From Spirochaetia bacterium (GTDB taxonomy: Bacteria; Spirochaetota; Spirochaetia; SP-2023): a DNA stretch of 64,000 nt. The number at the start of each line of letters is the position of its first letter. Within the stretch, counting starts at the first letter, position 1. The notes beneath the pieces were generated by a model. That model saw nothing but the letters and a program-made list of their open reading frames with translations, made no database searches and had not been told where the DNA came from. The position numbers were made by a program, and so were the translations under genes. The stretch covers positions 2,240,001 to 2,304,000 of the forward strand of contig OZ253665.1 of the NCBI GenBank assembly GCA_965263295.1. The letters run 5' to 3'. Positions 946 through 13,032 of the stretch are shown one piece after another.

Positions 946-1869
946 TTAAAATATGCCGCTGTTCTTATCAAATCTTTTTACAAGACTATTGCAACTGACG
1001 ATCAACAGAAACCCGACGAGGGATTGATATAGACCTGCCGCCGTGCTCATGGGAATGTCGCCCAAAGACATTAAGCTGCGATACACATAGGTATCAATTA
1101 CATCGGTTACCGGATAGAGAATGCCGTTGTCGCGGGGTATCTGGTAGAAGAGACCGAAGTCGGCGCGGAATATATTTCCGATCGCCAGCAGGGTCAAAAT
1201 AATGATCAAGCGCTTAATTTGTGGCATTGTGATATATAAAATTTCCTGGAGCATATTGGCCCCATCCATCCAGGCCGCTTCGTACAAGGACTTGTCAATA
1301 GCTAGAATGGAAGCCAGGTACAGGGATGCGCCGAAGCCAATCCCTTTCCAGTTGTTGATGATGACCAGAAGCCATGGCCATGGCTTCCAATTGCTGTACC
1401 AGTCTACCGGCTCAAAACCCATGCTAGAAAGCATTTGGTTCAATATCCCACTGCTCGGCTGTAAAAAGGCAAAACTAAAGTAACTTACGACTACCCAAGA
1501 TATGAAGTGGGGGAAGAGAATCATGGTTTGATACGCGCTGCGCAGACCCGGACTGAGCAAATAGCTTAGTGCGATGGCCAAAAGAATCGAGCTTATTGTG
1601 CCGATCAGCAGGAAGGCGCTGTTGTAGGCAATCGTGTTGCGCGTTATGACCCAGGCATCATGTGAGCCAAATAGAAAGCGGAAATTGCTTAAGCCAACCC
1701 AATCGCTAGAGATGACAGAGGAAATGAAGCCGCCGTCGAAACGCAGGTGCTTGAAGGCTAATATGACTCCGGCCATCGGGATATAAGCGAGCACAAAAAC
1801 CAGAATAAAGCCCGGCAATGCCATGGTCAGAAATGGCAGAGAACGACGAATTTTCTCTATAGAAAGCAT
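946..1869 (-). CDS. Carbohydrate ABC transporter permease (MalF/LplB-like)
   Basis: WVGLSNF, PHFISWVVV, EAA loop LYEAAWMDGA, TDVIDTYVY, AAGLYQS motifs. Confidence 0.92.
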   Translation of the reverse strand: MLSIEKIRRSLPFLTMALPGFILVFVLAYIPMAGVILAFKHLRFDGGFISSVISSDWVGLSNFRFLFGSHDAWVITRNTIAYNSAFLLIGTISSILLAIALSYLLSPGLRSAYQTMILFPHFISWVVVSYFSFAFLQPSSGILNQMLSSMGFEPVDWYSNWKPWPWLLVIINNWKGIGFGASLYLASILAIDKSLYEAAWMDGANMLQEILYITMPQIKRLIIILTLLAIGNIFRADFGLFYQIPRDNGILYPVTDVIDTYVYRSLMSLGDIPMSTAAGLYQSLVGFLLIVSCNSLVKRFDKNSGIF

Positions 1870-2075: not shown

Positions 2076-3062
2076 ATGAGTAGAATTATTGGAGCTCCTC
2101 TGCCTAATATTCCCTGGGAAGAAAAGCCCCAGGGATCTAAGGCCCCCCTGTGGCGCTTTGCGGGGAATCCCGTCATTCCACGGGACGCGACTCCCAATTC
2201 CAACAGTATTTTTAATAGTGCCGTCATCCCTTACCGCGGTGAGTTTGTCGGCGTTTTCCGCTGCGACGATCGCTGTCGCAGCATGAATATTTTCCTGGGA
2301 CACAGTAAAGATGGGCTCAAGTGGCAATTGGAGCTAGAACCGTTAAAGTTTGAGGGCGATTCGGAGCTTACCCGCTTTGAATATCGTTACGACCCCCGTC
2401 TGTGTAAAGTTGATGATAAGTATTACATAAGCTGGTGTAACGGATACCATGGCCCGACCATAGGCCTTGCCGAAACAGAAGACTTCACACGTTTTCGTCA
2501 ACTTGAAAATGCGTTCTTGCCATACAACCGCAATGGCGTTTTGTTTCCCCGTCGAATTAATGGCAATTTTGCCATGTACAGCCGCCCCAGTGACAATGGA
2601 CATACCGCGTTTGGCGATATTTTTTACAGTGAAAGTCCAGACATGACGTATTGGGGCAGGCATCGTTTTGTGATGGGAGCCATTCAGGGCAATACTTCCG
2701 CCTGGCAATCGACAAAAATTGGCCCTGGGCCGGTTCCTATCGAAACTTCAGAAGGCTGGTTGTTGTTTTACCACGGTGTATTGAACAGTTGTAACGGCTT
2801 TGTGTATAGTTTCGGAGTCGCTTTGATGGATCGGGAAATGCCGTGGAAAGTCTTGTGTCGAAGCCGGCCTTACTTGCTTTCCCCACAAAAAGATTATGAG
2901 TGTGTCGGCGACGTGCCGAATGTCGTTTTCCCATGTGCCGCCCTGACAGATAGCGATACCGGTCGCATGGCCATATATTACGGTTGCGCCGATACAGTCA
3001 CCGGCCTGGCTTTTGCCTACGTAGATGAGATTTTGGACTTCCTGAAAAATAATGCACTGTGA
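2076..3062 (+). CDS. GH130 beta-mannoside phosphorylase
   Basis: NSIFNSAV, YDPR, PYNRNGVLFPR, SRPSDNGHT.FGDI, VGDVPNVVFP and IYYGCADT motifs typical of GH130 phosphorylases. Confidence 0.93.
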   Translation: MSRIIGAPLPNIPWEEKPQGSKAPLWRFAGNPVIPRDATPNSNSIFNSAVIPYRGEFVGVFRCDDRCRSMNIFLGHSKDGLKWQLELEPLKFEGDSELTRFEYRYDPRLCKVDDKYYISWCNGYHGPTIGLAETEDFTRFRQLENAFLPYNRNGVLFPRRINGNFAMYSRPSDNGHTAFGDIFYSESPDMTYWGRHRFVMGAIQGNTSAWQSTKIGPGPVPIETSEGWLLFYHGVLNSCNGFVYSFGVALMDREMPWKVLCRSRPYLLSPQKDYECVGDVPNVVFPCAALTDSDTGRMAIYYGCADTVTGLAFAYVDEILDFLKNNAL

Positions 3063-8819: not shown

Positions 8820-10058
8820 TCAATCCCACTGCAGGGCTCCCCCCACTTGGTATTCCGTGACACGCGTTTCAAAGAAGTTTTTTTCCTTGCTCAGGTCCAT
8901 AATCTCAGACATCCAGGGGAAGGGGTTGGGCACTCCGCTAAACTCCTCGGTCAAACCGATCTGCTGTAGGCGCCGATTGGCGATGAATTTTAAATAATCT
9001 TCCATGACGGCAGCATTCATTCCCAGCACGCCTCGCGGCATGGTGTCGCGGGCGTACTGGACCTCCAGGGCCATGCCCTGCAAAATCAGGCTGGCAGCCT
9101 GTTGCTTCATTTCTTCGTCCCAGAGATCGGGATTTTCCCGTTTGATCTGATTGATCATATCAATGCCAAAATTCAAGTGCATGGACTCGTCTCGCAAGAT
9201 GTACTGGAACTGCTCCGCGGTGCCTGTCATGCGATTGCGGCGCCCCATCGACAGGATCTGGGCAAAACCGCAATAAAAAAACATGCCTTCGAGCACACAG
9301 TAATAGGCAATCAAATTGAGCAAAAGCTTGCGGTCGTTTTCTGGCGTGCCCGTGCAGAACTGCGGGTCGGAAAGGCCGGAAGTGTAGTGCAAGCCCCAGG
9401 CGGCCTTGCGGGCGACTGACGGTATCTCGTGATACATGTTAAAGACTTCGCCCTCGTCAATTCCCAGCGATTCAATCACGTATTGGTAGGCATGTGTGTG
9501 GATGGCCTCTTCAAAACTTTGACGTAGCAGATATTGGCGGCATTCTGGGTTGGTAATATGGCGATAAACGGCCAATACAAGGTTATTGGCTACAAGGGAG
9601 TCCGCGGTAGAAAAGAAGCCCAGGTTGCGTTTGACAATGCGCTGCTCGTCTTCGCTCAGATCGCCGCTCCTCCAAAGCGCTATGTCAGCTGTCATGTTAA
9701 TTTCTTGCGGCATCCAATGGTTGGCACAAGCGTCGAGATACTTTTGCCAAGCCCAGTCATATTTAAAAGGCACCAATTGATTTAAGTCTGCGCGGCAGTT
9801 AATCATGACCTTGTCATCGACCCGGACGCGTTCAAAACTGCTGGACTCGGCCAGATCGGCACAGACGTCCAGCTCGGCGAGCAAGGCTTCTGCCTTGCTC
9901 ATGCGTTGGCCGCCTCCGTCAATCCCCCGCAGCGAGGCAAAACCGGCGGCCAGTTGCTCATTGTCGAGCAAAGGCAAAATCGCGGATTCTTCTGCGGATT
10001 TTGATTTTGTAGAGATCTCGGCATGTGCCGCGTCTTTTTCTTGATCCCATTCGGACAT
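8820..10058 (-). CDS. nrdB: Ribonucleotide reductase class Ia beta subunit
   Basis: [38 protein letters not shown] (radical Tyr), [27 protein letters not shown] before ATG 10058 (MSEWDQE). Confidence 0.96.
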
Positions 10059-10207
10059 AAGGGGAATCCTCCATATCAATTTAAAATCAGATATCTCAAG
10101 AAATCAATAATCAATATCATTATCTTGGCTCATCGTCAAAGCTTCAAAGCACGATATCAGCTGCGCTGCTCACAATCAGATGCCCTGGCCGGGGGCGACT
10201 AATTAAT

Positions 10208-10265
10208 GTGGGGTTCTGTTGTGGATTTATTTATGGCAAATATAAATAGCTTCCACAACTCCCAC
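10208..10265. other. Long imperfect hairpin upstream of nrdB
   Basis: Nested arms GTGGG/CCCAC, GTTGTGGA (10218-25)/TCCACAAC (10252-59), TATTTAT/ATAAATA. Confidence 0.55.
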
Positions 10266-10347
10266 GGTAAAAGTGGCGCAGGGCCGTTTAGATTGCTTAG
10301 ACTGCTTAGAATCCTTGGGTTGCTTGGGACAGCACCTTGCCGATTTG

Positions 10348-10497
10348 CTATTGACAAGCTTCGCAGTCCTGATCGTTTAACATGCAGTACTTGGCACCCT
10401 GTTTGTGCCCGCGTACGACCCGATCGGCAGCAGCGTCGATAAAATCGTCCGCCTGTTCCAGTTCAATCGCACTTTCATCCCAATTCAGCATACCCAT
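10348..10497 (-). CDS. 49-aa free-standing RNR alpha C-terminal cysteine-tail peptide
   Basis: MGMLNWDESAIELEQADDFIDAAADRVVRGHKQGAKYCMLNDQDCEACQ. GAGGGAG RBS 9 nt before the ATG. Ends in the C-x6-CEACQ tail characteristic of Pseudomonas/Burkholderia-type NrdA, which the adjacent NrdA lacks. Confidence 0.78.
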   Translation of the reverse strand: MGMLNWDESAIELEQADDFIDAAADRVVRGHKQGAKYCMLNDQDCEACQ

Positions 10498-10602
10498 ATT
10501 CCGTTTCTCCCTCGTACCTTTCGGTGTGTCTTTCATTTTTCGACGGTTTCGATAAAATTTGTAACTGTCTGCGCAACAATTTCCAACATTTTATTTATTC
10601 CA

Positions 10603-13032
10603 TTATTTGATAGTATTTTGCACGGCGTTAAGCCCACTGGTACTGACGGTCGATTTCTCCGTCGACGTGGCGGCCAATGCCCTCAAGTAATAGGTTGTTT
10701 TCAAGCCCCGAAGCCAAGCCATGCGATAGGTCAAATCAATTTTTTTACCGCTGGCCGCCCCCATGTAAATATTCAGCGACTGCGACTGATCAATCCATTT
10801 CTGGCGGCGTGCCGCAGCTTCGACGATCCAGCGTGGCTCCAGTTCAAAGGCACTCTGGTAACGCTGCTTCAGCTCATCTGGGATACTGGCTATGTTTTGC
10901 ACGCTGCCGTCAAAGCGCTTTAGTTCCTCAATCACGGCGGGCCGCCAAAGGCCTAACGCTTTCAGTTCATCCACCAGATAGCGATTAATTACGGTAAATT
11001 CGCCCGAAAGATTGGATTTTACATATACATTCTGAAAGGTGGGCTCAATTGACTGACTGACCCCGACAATATTTGAAATCGTGGCCGTCGGCGCAATTGT
11101 CATGACGTAGGAATTGCGCATTCCTCGGCGAACTTTTTGGCGCAAAGAATTCCAGTCCAGGCTCTGGCTGCGGTCCAAATCTAAGTAGCCTGCGCCGCGG
11201 CTTTGAGCCAGCAGCTCAATGCTGTCAATCGGCAAGATTCCCCGGTTCCACAGCGAGCCGGCAAAACTTTCATATGCCCCTCGCTCTTCGGCTAAGTTTT
11301 GCGAAGCTTCAATTGCGTAGTAGGAAATCAGCTCGGCAGAGCAGTCCGCGAACTGCACGGCCTCTTCTGAGCTGAAAGCGATGCCCATTTTGTATAGCGC
11401 GTCCTGAAAACCCATCATGCCCAGGCCGATGGGACGGTGACGCAGGTTGCTGCGGCGGGCCTTTTCGACGGCGTAATAGTTAATGTCGATGACATTATCC
11501 AGCATGCGTATCGCGGTGCGGACTGTCTGGCGCAACTTGTCGCGCTGCAGCTGGCCATTTTCGACGTGGGCCGCCAGGTTGACCGAGCCCAGATTGCAAA
11601 CCGCAATTTCCTCTTCATTGGTGTTCAATGTGATTTCGGTACAGAGGTTTGACGAGTGTACCTGGCCGACGTGTTGCTGTGGCGAGCGCAGGTTGCAAGG
11701 GTCCTTGAAAGTTATCCACGGGTGCCCGGTCTCAAACAGCATGGACAGGATTTTCCGCCAGAGGGTTACGGCTTCCAGTTTTTTGTGGCGCAGCTGGCCG
11801 CTGGCTGCCAGCTGTTCGTATTCGGCGTAGCGCTGTTCAAATTTTTGGCCATACAGGTCGTGCAGGTCTCGGACGTCGGATGGCGAGAATAGGAGCCAGG
11901 GCCCGTTTTCCTGCACGCGCTTGACCAGCAGGTCAGGCACCCAAATGGCGGTATTCATGTCGTGGGTGCGCCGGCGGTCGTCTCCCGTGTTTTTGCGCAA
12001 CTCGACAAACTCTTCGATATCCAAGTGCCAAGCTTCCAGATAAGCGCATACGGCCCCCTTGCGCTTGCCCCCCTGATTGACGGCCACCGCGGTATCATTG
12101 ACCACTTTCAAAAATGGCACCACACCTTGACTTTTGCCATTGGTACCCTTGATATGCGAGCCCATGGCCCGCACGGGAGTCCAGTCGTTGCCCAGACCCC
12201 CGGCCCATTTGGAAAGCATGGCGTTGTCGTGGATGGCATTAAAAATGCCGTCCAGGTCGTCCGGGACCGTCGTCAAATAGCAGGAAGAAAGCTGCGGGCG
12301 CAGGGTGCCGGAGTTAAACAGGGTCGGCGTGGAGCTCATGTAATCAAAGCTGGAGATCAGGCGATAAAACTCGATGGCCCGTTCGGTCGGTTGCGCCTCT
12401 TGCAAGGCCAGACCCATGGCGACGCGCATGAAAAAGATTTGCGGCAGCTCCAGGCGAACGCCCTCCCTGTGGAGAAAGTAACGGTCATACAAGGTCTGCA
12501 GGCCTAAGTATTGGAACTGTAAGTCGCGTTTGGGTTCCAGAGCGGCGGCCAGGGCCTGCAAATTGAAACGTCGGGCCAATTCAGGGCTCAGGAGTTCCAT
12601 TTCAATCCCTCTGGGAACATAGTCGAGAAAAACCTGGCGGTAAACTTCGGCGAGTTTTTCCTTGTCTGAGAGGACAAGGTGCTGAATGCCATAGGCTTTA
12701 GTCATGTCCTCGGCAAACAGCTTGTGTAGCAAAAGGCGCGCCGTGACGTAGCTGTAATTGGGTTCCTGTTCAACCAGGGTGCGGCTGCTGATCAGCAGGG
12801 CGGTGTGCAATTCTGACTCGGGTATCCCCGTGTAAAGACTGCGTAATGTCTCGCGTAGGACCTGTTGCCCATCTACCCCGGCCAGCCCCTGTAGCGCGTA
12901 GTCGACAGTGTGCTGCAGAAAATCAAAATCCAAAGGCTGTTCCTGCGAGCCAGAACCATCCGGCCGGGCTACTTTGACTAAAATTTTACTCGCAGCTTCG
13001 CGCAACTCATCGACAGGCATAATGTTCCCCAT
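10603..13032 (-). CDS. nrdA: Ribonucleotide reductase class Ia alpha subunit, lacking the C-terminal Cys tail
   Basis: STPTLFNSG, SSCYL, SSNLCTEI (thiyl Cys), VCNLGS, APTATIS, LKTTYYLR. Ends LNAVQNTIK with no C-terminal cysteines. Confidence 0.96.
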   Translation of the reverse strand: MGNIMPVDELREAASKILVKVARPDGSGSQEQPLDFDFLQHTVDYALQGLAGVDGQQVLRETLRSLYTGIPESELHTALLISSRTLVEQEPNYSYVTARLLLHKLFAEDMTKAYGIQHLVLSDKEKLAEVYRQVFLDYVPRGIEMELLSPELARRFNLQALAAALEPKRDLQFQYLGLQTLYDRYFLHREGVRLELPQIFFMRVAMGLALQEAQPTERAIEFYRLISSFDYMSSTPTLFNSGTLRPQLSSCYLTTVPDDLDGIFNAIHDNAMLSKWAGGLGNDWTPVRAMGSHIKGTNGKSQGVVPFLKVVNDTAVAVNQGGKRKGAVCAYLEAWHLDIEEFVELRKNTGDDRRRTHDMNTAIWVPDLLVKRVQENGPWLLFSPSDVRDLHDLYGQKFEQRYAEYEQLAASGQLRHKKLEAVTLWRKILSMLFETGHPWITFKDPCNLRSPQQHVGQVHSSNLCTEITLNTNEEEIAVCNLGSVNLAAHVENGQLQRDKLRQTVRTAIRMLDNVIDINYYAVEKARRSNLRHRPIGLGMMGFQDALYKMGIAFSSEEAVQFADCSAELISYYAIEASQNLAEERGAYESFAGSLWNRGILPIDSIELLAQSRGAGYLDLDRSQSLDWNSLRQKVRRGMRNSYVMTIAPTATISNIVGVSQSIEPTFQNVYVKSNLSGEFTVINRYLVDELKALGLWRPAVIEELKRFDGSVQNIASIPDELKQRYQSAFELEPRWIVEAAARRQKWIDQSQSLNIYMGAASGKKIDLTYRMAWLRGLKTTYYLRALAATSTEKSTVSTSGLNAVQNTIK

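What the first reader, a model, noticed from the sequence alone, without database searches (positions are those of the whole stretch)
10348..10680. Split class Ia ribonucleotide reductase: the alpha subunit's redox-cysteine tail is a separate 49-aa gene
Seen: NrdA keeps all catalytic motifs but ends ...TYYLRALAATSTEKSTVSTSGLNAVQNTIK* with no C-terminal Cys. After two in-frame TAA stops and an AT-rich gap, a GAGGGAG RBS precedes a 49-aa ORF ending KYCMLNDQDCEACQ*. Known: class I alpha subunits need a C-terminal Cys pair on a flexible tail to re-reduce the active-site disulfide via thioredoxin/glutaredoxin. Pseudomonas/Burkholderia-type NrdA continues from this same LNAV motif through a linker to C-x6-CEACQ. 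Partial precedents are the split class II NrdJa/NrdJb of P. aeruginosa and inter-subunit action of the yeast Rnr1 CxxC tail. Inference: the tail has become a free-standing peptide acting in trans, giving a three-gene nrdA-peptide-nrdB enzyme. I know no description of this for class I, and gene callers would easily miss so small an ORF.
Basis: partly seen in the sequence, partly recalled or inferred. Interest (0 to 1): 0.92.

Follow-up and report, generated by a model that had tools for sequence, protein, structure and literature searches.

The report
Detached redox tail of ribonucleotide reductase
In this spirochaete and its closest relatives, the cysteine tail that recharges the DNA-precursor enzyme ribonucleotide reductase after each reaction is made as a separate peptide of about 45 residues instead of being the end of the large subunit.

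Summary
nrdA (10603..13032, minus strand) keeps its catalytic residues but ends at ...LNAVQNTIK with no cysteine. A 49-codon ORF (10348..10497) follows 105 nt later, behind a GAGGGAG ribosome-binding site, and ends C-x6-C-x2-C-Q.

- **Sequence accuracy:** contigs of 4 public runs (3 samples, 2 studies) match this stretch exactly.
- **Conservation:** all 3 congeneric genomes have the same arrangement. Their spacers are unalignable (79-133 nt) and the peptide sits in different frames relative to nrdA, so recoding is unlikely.
- **Protein relatives:** the 10 closest NrdA proteins (74-100% identity) lack the tail. The next 110 (71% or less, Pseudomonadales type) all carry it.
- **Sole RNR:** in the 3 congeners this tail-less NrdA is the only RNR catalytic subunit found.

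Most likely the peptide re-reduces the active site in trans. That step is inferred and was not tested here.

Free forms share an invariant Trp motif (L-N/D-W-D) that is absent from all 110 fused tails and resembles the NrdB C-terminus. Tail-like peptides also occur in a Mu-like prophage, in a phage contig with no RNR, and in a second spirochaete genus.

Four literature searches found no class I description. The scan has noted this kind of split before on other DNA.

The parts
10603..13032 (-). nrdA, class Ia RNR alpha subunit. It lacks both the C-terminal Cys tail and the N-terminal ATP-cone. Coordinates include the TAA stop.
   Evidence: Pfam PF02867 at 8.9e-193 and PF00317 at 1.5e-23, with no PF03477. 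Residues 19-805 align to residues 148-928 of the 963-aa chain 5im3_A. Columns C251, N462, C464, E466, C479, Y781 and Y782 are invariant across 59 sequences.
10498..10602 (-). 105-nt spacer, 37% G+C, with a second in-frame TAA at 10591..10593.
   Evidence: Its nucleotide identity to the congeners' spacers is at shuffle level in 6 of 6 pairs. No Rfam family matched. The fold z-score is 0.28.
10507..10513 (-). Shine-Dalgarno-like GAGGGAG, 9 nt upstream of the peptide's ATG.
   Evidence: Purine-rich equivalents (AGAGGGA, AGGAG, GAGGGG) sit at similar distances in G002, G001 and G003.
10348..10497 (-). Tail peptide gene, 49 aa plus TAG. It has an N-terminal M-x-M-L-N-W-D motif, an acidic D-D-F-I stretch, and a C-terminal C-x6-C-x2-C-Q.
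   Evidence: Its nucleotide identity to the congeners exceeds every shuffle in 6 of 6 pairs. No Pfam or PHROG family matched.
8820..10079 (-). nrdB, the beta subunit. It has Asp and Tyr at the ligand and radical positions and ends ...GGALQWD. The start codon is uncertain.
   Evidence: PF00268 at 1.7e-89. The best solved chain is 6y2n_A.

Best explanation
The class Ia ribonucleotide reductase of this spirochaete genus has a naturally split alpha subunit. NrdA carries the whole catalytic machinery and stops just after the LNAV motif. The redox tail (C-x6-C-x2-C-Q) is translated from its own start codon as a free peptide of 43-49 residues.

Proposed mechanism, by step:
1. After each turnover the active-site cysteines of NrdA are oxidised (established class I chemistry).
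2. The reduced peptide docks on NrdA through its conserved N-terminal L-N/D-W-D plus acidic D/E-F module (inferred). It inserts its Cys end into the active site and reduces the disulfide (inferred by homology to fused tails).
3. Thioredoxin or glutaredoxin, both encoded elsewhere in the genome, re-reduce the oxidised peptide (inferred).

The split arose once, in the ancestor of a clade whose NrdA came from a Pseudomonadales-like donor and also lost the functional ATP-cone.
For: **Sequence accuracy.** Four runs give identical contigs over the region.

**Conservation across species.**
- 3 of 3 congeners (G001-G003; NrdA 80-84% identical) have a tail-less nrdA followed by a 43-48 aa ORF with its own SD.
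- Spacers are 105, 111, 133 and 79 nt. The peptide frame relative to nrdA is 0, 0, +1 and +1.
- The ORF is conserved above shuffles in 6 of 6 pairs. The spacer and the downstream DNA are not.
- The nrdA-peptide link survives where nrdB has moved away (G002, G003).

**Tail status tracks relatedness.** Of the 120 best NrdA relatives listed (8000 were scored), the 10 closest lack a terminal CxxC and the other 110 have one. A further tail-less NrdA (P0010) and a peptide (P0127) both sit on a 7009-base Spirochaetota MAG contig. P0012 and P0004 both sit on a 24709-base contig. I infer each pair is on one contig from the matching lengths.

**Outgroups are fused.** In the sister family, G004 is fused (978-aa frame). 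G005 has an open frame running to the contig end, and the tail lies on another contig's start.

**The enzyme must work.** G001-G003 each have exactly 1 PF02867 match and 0 PF13597 matches, so the tail-less NrdA is the only RNR catalytic subunit found there.

**Free forms carry an extra module.** 12 of 12 aligned free peptides have an invariant Trp. 0 of 110 fused tails contain any Trp after LNxV.

**Reductants exist.** G000 has thioredoxin (2 matches) and glutaredoxin (2 matches).

**Complex prediction gives weak support only.**
- Score 0.52 against a best of 3 controls of 0.02.
- The mark was reached by 116 of 157 solved complexes and 2 of 215 mismatched pairs.
- At 0.60 or under, only 18 of those 157 solved complexes passed, as did both mismatches that passed.
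- The runs agree in at least 45% of contacts, and the partner's pLDDT is at least 44.
- No interface was given.
Against: - There is no biochemical, proteomic or RNA evidence that the peptide is made or binds NrdA.
- The complex prediction is only weak, and where the peptide docks is unknown.
- G000 also has a class III nrdD, so NrdAB need not be essential in this genome.
- In another spirochaete genus, free tail-like peptides coexist with a tailed NrdA: the peptide is in 4 of 5 genomes and a fused NrdA in 5 of 5. They also occur in phage DNA without any RNR. Such peptides may therefore do something other than replace a missing tail.
- The congeners are 89-94% complete, so a missed second RNR is not excluded.
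Confidence: 0.75

Rival explanations
1. The peptide is a real gene but is not the electron shuttle. NrdA would be reduced directly by a glutaredoxin, thioredoxin or small thiol. The peptide would act as a regulator, for example by competing with the NrdB C-terminus for its cleft on NrdA or by titrating thioredoxin.
For: The peptide N-terminus (L-N/D-W-D) resembles the NrdB C-terminus (L-Q/D/K-W-D, then stop) in 6 of 6 NrdB proteins examined. Free peptides coexist with a tailed NrdA in genus g74. They also occur in a 97%-complete phage contig without PF02867. Passages of the Burnim et al. preprint suggest that cysteine-less class II termini may use small-molecule reductants.
Against: The three tail cysteines and the spacing of fused tails are invariant in 12 of 12 peptides. 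Loss of the tail from NrdA and presence of the adjacent peptide go together in every case for which I had DNA (4 of 4 genomes). A pure regulator would not need the exact C-x6-C-x2-C-Q end.
Confidence: 0.15
2. Translational recoding makes a fused, tailed NrdA. The route would be read-through of the two TAA codons, or a frameshift out of and back into frame.
For: In G000 and G002 the peptide is in the nrdA frame.
Against: - Two TAA stops would have to be read through.
- In G001 and G003 the peptide is in another frame, and the spacers are unalignable.
- Every peptide has its own SD and ATG.
- The spacer has no Rfam match and no unusual fold, z 0.28.
Confidence: 0.03
3. It is an assembly or sequencing artefact, or a recent pseudogene, produced by two compensating indels in A-runs.
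Against: Contigs of 4 runs from 2 studies are identical. The same architecture, with different spacers, is found in 3 other species and is implied by 10 tail-less NrdA proteins. The intermediate frame is not conserved.
Confidence: 0.02
4. The RNR is decaying and non-functional in a host-associated lineage. The small ORF would be a remnant.
For: In G000 nrdD also appears broken or split, into 589 aa plus 57 aa. G002 is named as a Candidatus taxon.
Against: NrdA is 80-84% identical among congeners with all catalytic columns invariant. It is the only RNR catalytic subunit found in 3 congeners. The peptide ORF is conserved while its flanks are not.
Confidence: 0.03

Closest known systems
Pseudomonas aeruginosa class Ia NrdA (solved chain 5im3_A) and other Pseudomonadales/Cellvibrionales NrdA
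   Same: NrdA is 66-71% identical over the whole catalytic body. It has the same ...EKST..LNAV motif, and the peptide carries the same terminal C-x6-C-x2-C-Q.
   Different: In those proteins the tail is fused through a Trp-free linker of 10-51 residues (median 21), and an N-terminal ATP-cone (PF03477) is present. Here the tail is a separate gene with a new Trp/acidic N-terminal module, and the first about 147 residues of the solved chain are missing.
Split class II RNR NrdJa/NrdJb of P. aeruginosa (Crona et al. 2015, PMC4520616; I read passages)
   Same: The catalytic chain has no redox tail. A separate downstream gene product carries the C-terminal cysteines and mediates thiol-disulfide exchange. 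The ancestor was presumably a single chain.
   Different: That enzyme is class II (B12-dependent, no NrdB). Burnim et al. [quoted passage not shown] Here the enzyme is class I with NrdB, and the peptide is a 43-49 aa, probably unfolded chain with three Cys and no Pfam match.
Aeromonas phage Aeh1 NrdA-a/NrdA-b (Crona et al., PMC3045599; I saw only the search listing and the start of the abstract)
   Same: It is a class I nrdA expressed as two polypeptides that must reassemble.
   Different: In Aeh1 a mobile genetic element fragments the gene. Here only the flexible tail is detached, and no endonuclease gene lies in the 105-nt spacer.
Yeast Rnr1 CX2C tail acting on the neighbouring alpha subunit, and glutaredoxin fused to NrdB in Facklamia (both recalled, not read here)
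   Same: Both show that the re-reduction module of class I RNR need not be tethered in cis to the active site it serves.
   Different: In both cases the module is still covalently part of an RNR subunit.

Membership tests
Class Ia RNR alpha subunit (NrdA) | Ribonuc_red_lgC barrel plus the all-alpha domain | tested here: met
   PF02867 at 8.9e-193 and PF00317 at 1.5e-23.
Class Ia RNR alpha subunit (NrdA) | Radical Cys in N-x-C-x-E, the active-site redox Cys pair, and the YY radical-transfer pair | tested here: met
   SSNLCTEI, LSSCYL, AVCNLGS and TTYYLR align to 5im3_A. Columns C251, N462, C464, E466, C479, Y781 and Y782 are invariant in 59 sequences. The assignment of roles is recalled from E. 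coli NrdA.
Class Ia RNR alpha subunit (NrdA) | C-terminal redox Cys pair on the same polypeptide | tested here: not met
   There is no Cys after TTYYLR, and the chain stops after LNAVQNTIK.
Class Ia RNR alpha subunit (NrdA) | Partner beta subunit with an Asp ligand and a radical Tyr (class Ia rather than Ic) | tested here: met
   FFSTADS and EAIHTHAY are present in G000-G003. The same-order and g74 relatives have Glu and Phe at these positions. Which positions these are is recalled from E. coli and Chlamydia R2.
Split RNR with a separate redox subunit (NrdJa/NrdJb kind) | The catalytic chain lacks tail cysteines, and a nearby separate gene supplies them | tested here: met
Split RNR with a separate redox subunit (NrdJa/NrdJb kind) | [quoted passage not shown] | tested here: not met
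   nrdB is present and the alpha subunit is NrdA-type. The peptide is 49 aa with 3 Cys and no Pfam family.
Split RNR with a separate redox subunit (NrdJa/NrdJb kind) | The redox subunit binds the catalytic subunit and is needed for physiological turnover | not testable with these tools
   Only a weak complex prediction is available: 0.52 against 0.02 for the best control. This needs enzymology.
Pseudomonadales-type NrdA redox tail | C-x6-C-x2-C-Q at the extreme C-terminus, homologous to the fused tails | tested here: met
   The peptide profile matches up to its last position in 16 open frames of 506-1179 aa. The 8 of these that I translated are NrdA C-termini. Alignment.

The most novel reading that the evidence does not exclude
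Free-standing RNR tail peptides are a mobile functional module rather than a one-off gene break. They would be short redox shuttles that dock on NrdA through an N-terminal L-x-W-D motif copying the NrdB C-terminus, taking turns with beta at the same cleft during the re-reduction half-cycle. Phages (a Mu-like prophage here, and a phage contig with no RNR) would spread them to plug into or take over the host's dNTP supply. The spirochaete split could then have arisen when such a phage-type peptide gene recombined into the 3' end of nrdA.
Probability: 0.2. Interest if true: 0.85.

Novelty: new variant of a known kind. Interest (0 to 1): 0.7.

Why it matters
Re-reduction is the least understood half of the class I RNR cycle, because the alpha tail is disordered and tethered. 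A natural enzyme whose tail is a free peptide of about 45 residues makes that step separable.

- The peptide can be titrated, mutated, labelled or cross-linked. Its docking site, affinity and reductant preference then become directly measurable.
- RNR alpha sequences that surveys score as lacking C-terminal cysteines should be checked for a neighbouring mini-ORF before alternative reductants are invoked.
- Tail-like peptides in phages without any RNR hint at a very small auxiliary or hijacking gene aimed at host dNTP synthesis.

Tried and rejected
- **AlphaFold2 of the stop-read-through product.** I read TAA as X, aligned it and folded it. Mean pLDDT was 65, parts of the barrel and residues 749-894 were under 50, so it says nothing about docking.
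- **ESM Atlas look-up of the peptide.** It returned three unnamed clusters at 0.91 with recognition below the useful level, so it was not used.
- **tblastn of the peptide against plasmids and phages.** No match.
- **Metagenome scan with the peptide profile.** It gave 2 loci (L074, L075) that match only tail residues 35-49. I did not examine them.
- **Notes of this scan.** Nothing by place or by sequence.
- **RNA evidence.** No RNA holder is listed, so expression is untested.
- **G384 (L019).** A 46-aa frame ending CEACQ lies upstream of an nrdB fragment, 136 nt from a contig end, in a 74%-complete MAG. It cannot be called split or frameshifted.
- **Promoter and terminator scan of 9900..10800.** Counts were at shuffle level, so it gives no evidence on transcription units.
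- **dN/dS.** Not attempted, because the ORF has 43-49 codons at about 50% identity.
- **P0129.** This 1202-aa hit was not inspected. It matches only profile positions 12-40.
- **Origin from an already split donor.** I considered that the split came with the transfer from a Pseudomonadales-type donor. The 110 nearest non-clade NrdA are all fused. Plasmid-borne forms noted earlier by the scan were not compared.
Full report
**1. The observation**

On the minus strand, nrdA (10603..13032) encodes 809 aa with the RNR barrel (PF02867, 8.9e-193) and the all-alpha domain (PF00317), but no ATP-cone. It ends ...TTYYLRALAATSTEKSTVSTSGLNAVQNTIK, then TAA. A second in-frame TAA follows four codons later.

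After a 105-nt spacer of 37% G+C, GAGGGAG (10513..10507) lies 9 nt before an ATG at 10497. The ORF 10497..10348 encodes MGMLNWDESAIELEQADDFIDAAADRVVRGHKQGAKYCMLNDQDCEACQ.

nrdB (PF00268, 1.7e-89) follows at 10079..8820. The 62-aa version from the ATG at 10536 is not conserved: in G002 the matching ATG meets a stop after 8 codons.

**2. Not an artefact and not recoding**

- Contigs of four public runs (3 samples, 2 studies; word depths 66, 67, 3.1 and 157) cover 10250..10750 with no differing letter and no gap. One or more of these runs may be the assembly's source.
- All three other genomes of the genus (G001-G003) have the same architecture. Each has a tail-less nrdA (ending ...LNAVQVFDPD...LNAVRAEAEH or ...EKSISIGGN), then a 79-133 nt spacer, a purine-rich SD and a 43-48 aa ORF ending C-x-L-x-D-P-D-C-E-A-C-Q.
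- The peptide frame relative to nrdA is 0, 0, +1 and +1 in the four genomes. Spacer and downstream DNA are no more alike than shuffles in 6 of 6 pairs each. The peptide ORF exceeds every shuffle in 6 of 6 pairs.
- The spacer has no Rfam match and no unusual fold.
- The nrdA-peptide link holds even where nrdB is not adjacent (G002, G003).

**3. Phylogenetic setting**

The G002 peptide is letter for letter a protein that NCBI names as a hypothetical protein of Candidatus Haliotispira prima, in class Spirochaetia.

Among the 120 best NrdA relatives listed (8000 were scored), tail status follows relatedness:
- The 10 closest (74-100% identity, 774-870 aa, no PF03477) all lack a terminal CxxC.
- The other 110 (71% or less, mostly Pseudomonas and Cellvibrionaceae names, with PF03477) all have it. 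In these the tail is reached from LNxV through a linker of 10-51 residues (median 21).

The best solved chain is 5im3_A; query residues 19-805 align to its residues 148-928 of 963.

Relatives from the same order carry a different RNR. Their NrdA is only 53-57% identical and is fused: G004 has a 978-aa frame. G005 has a frame open to the contig end, with the tail on another contig's start. Their NrdB has Glu and Phe where the genus has Asp and Tyr.

My reading is that the genus acquired a Pseudomonadales-like class Ia operon, lost the first ATP-cone, and split off the tail once. This is an inference.

**4. Is the split enzyme in use?**

G001-G003 each have one PF02867 match and no PF13597 match, so the tail-less NrdA is the only RNR catalytic subunit found there (genome completeness 89-94%). 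G000 additionally has a class III nrdD.

All catalytic columns of NrdA are invariant across 59 sequences. G000 encodes thioredoxin and glutaredoxin elsewhere in the genome.

**5. The peptide family**

A profile of free peptides, searched against 1.84 billion representatives, found 15 proteins at E of 1e-3 or better.
- 13 are 36-54 aa.
- One is an 88-aa NrdA C-terminal fragment.
- One is a 1202-aa protein that I did not inspect.

P0127, P0128, P0130 and P0135 share the pattern [F/L/P]-[N/D]-W-[D/N] ... [D/E]-[D/E]-F-[I/L/V] ... C-x-L-x3-[D/E]-C-[E/D]-[A/T]-C-Q. P0127 lies on a 7009-base contig, the same length and source as the contig of tail-less NrdA P0010. P0004 and P0012 likewise share a contig length of 24709. 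I infer co-location from these matches.

In the 12-sequence alignment, W6 and the three Cys are invariant. None of the 110 fused tails has a Trp after LNxV. The free forms have therefore gained an N-terminal module that the tethered linkers lack. I read it as a docking element (inference).

The module resembles the NrdB C-terminus, which ends L-[Q/D/K]-W-D in all 6 NrdB proteins examined (also 6y2n_A). In class I RNR the beta C-terminus is the part that binds a cleft on alpha (passages of PMC11903788). Whether the peptide uses that cleft is untested.

The one complex prediction gave weak support. The score was 0.52 against a best of 3 controls of 0.02. The mark was reached by 116 of 157 solved complexes and 2 of 215 mismatches. 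At 0.60 or under it was reached by only 18 of those 157 and by both passing mismatches. The runs agree in at least 45% of contacts, the partner's pLDDT is at least 44, and no interface was reported.

**6. Free tail-like peptides elsewhere**

- **Prophage.** G001 carries two identical 41-aa copies (MLNWESEE...CPLGDPDCEACQ) directly after a Mu Gam-like gene (phrog_491, 4.8e-32) and beside a portal gene. It also carries two 19-codon remnants.
- **Second genus.** In spirochaete genus g74, 4 of 5 genomes have a peptide of about 47 aa (...WEDWD...CLIEDPDCEACQ) in a non-nrd context. All 5 also have a fused NrdA.
- **Phage without RNR.** A 35-kb viral contig rated 97% complete, with no PF02867 match, encodes a 35-aa peptide ending KACKINDPDCEACS next to terminase genes.

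These cases show that free tail peptides are not confined to genomes with a tail-less NrdA. That keeps a regulatory or hijacking role open.

**7. Comparison with what is known**

The closest functional precedent is the split class II NrdJa/NrdJb. There the small subunit provides thiol-disulfide exchange, binds at 1:1 and is needed in vivo (PMC4520616, passages). [quoted passage not shown]

Four full-text searches and one search for the genus name found no description of a detached class I tail. Subscription-only papers are outside that library.

This scan's own earlier notes report the same kind of split in other places:
- Microbacteriaceae.
- A Pontimonas-like bacterium and about half of its family.
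- Phages with soil actinobacteria, and Rhodococcus-type phages with Nocardioides-type genomes.
- Saccharibacteria.
- Giant Pseudomonas plasmids.
- One RNR-less phage peptide.

I did not test those notes. By sequence look-up none overlaps this peptide.

**8. Verdict**

This is a real, conserved split of the class Ia alpha subunit in a spirochaete clade, most likely working with the tail peptide in trans.
- It is a new variant of a known kind: the redox module sits on a separate chain, as in class II.
- It appears to be a new lineage for a phenomenon this scan keeps meeting.
- The Trp/acidic module of the free forms and the phage-borne copies are the parts most worth testing at the bench.

Noticed in passing
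Outside the window: G000:C1:1983914-1985859 (L076 315..2084 and 2087..2260): The class III nrdD of the same genome is also in two pieces. A 589-aa ORF ends inside the C-terminal Cys cluster (...FCPKCDAELL...). A 57-aa ORF in another frame, 2 nt later, carries CRCE and the glycyl-radical-like RVMGY motif. No nrdD was found in G001-G003, and G165 has a single 786-aa frame. It could be a frameshift, a pseudogene or a real split.
   Followed up: partly
L038 2038..2163 and L039 (G001:C4 about 24.6 kb and 895 kb): Two identical 41-aa tail-like peptide genes (MLNWESEE...CPLGDPDCEACQ) sit directly after a Mu Gam-like gene and next to a phage portal gene. P0131 is a second peptide of this type, from another source.
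   Followed up: partly
L017 1432..1575 (G165) and L026 1411..1554 (G110): A 47-aa free peptide ending CLIEDPDCEACQ, with a WEDWD motif, lies in a conserved context away from nrd genes. It is present in 4 of 5 genomes of genus g74, all 5 of which also have a tailed NrdA.
   Followed up: partly
L054 3001..3108 (viral contig, 35 kb): A 35-aa ORF ends KACKINDPDCEACS, and its stop overlaps the next gene's ATG, just upstream of terminase-like genes. The contig is rated 97% complete and has no PF02867 match.
   Followed up: partly
L036 (G165), reverse strand nt about 1599-1646; L035 1513..1569 and L007 (G001): Short tail remnants are present. One...RRQDPSCEACQ, lies about 48 nt after the stop of a fused nrdA. 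Two copies of HQQDAKSCLLSDPDCEACQ lie behind a TAG, overlapping the start of a 470-aa ORF on the opposite strand that I did not identify. These suggest the tail-coding segment is duplicated or exchanged.
   Followed up: no
window 10603..13032 and 8820..10079: The genus's RNR looks horizontally acquired. NrdA is 66-71% identical to Pseudomonadales/Cellvibrionales NrdA but only 53-57% to same-order spirochaetes. NrdB has Asp/Tyr where those relatives have Glu/Phe (class Ic-like). The functional ATP-cone is missing.
   Followed up: partly
L050 (G003:C5): G003's nrdB is only 48% identical to G000's and lies on another contig, although its nrdA is 80% identical. It still has Asp/Tyr and ends LKWD.
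   Followed up: no
L004 about 1470..1520 (G001 spacer): A unit of about 15 nt (AAAGCACAAAAGGGG-like) is repeated three times just upstream of the peptide's SD. It makes a misleading 100-aa ORF that overlaps the nrdA end.
   Followed up: no
window 10345..10368 and 10714..10750, run X1 record 2: A second contig at depth 3.35 in the same sample matches the tail end and the nrdA 3' end, with 276 letters between them instead of 345. It is probably a related species with a shorter version of the same split.
   Followed up: no
window 9830..10079: NrdB has about 80 extra N-terminal residues relative to solved R2 chains: query residues 83-419 align to residues 4-341 of 6y2n_A. The true start codon is uncertain.
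   Followed up: no
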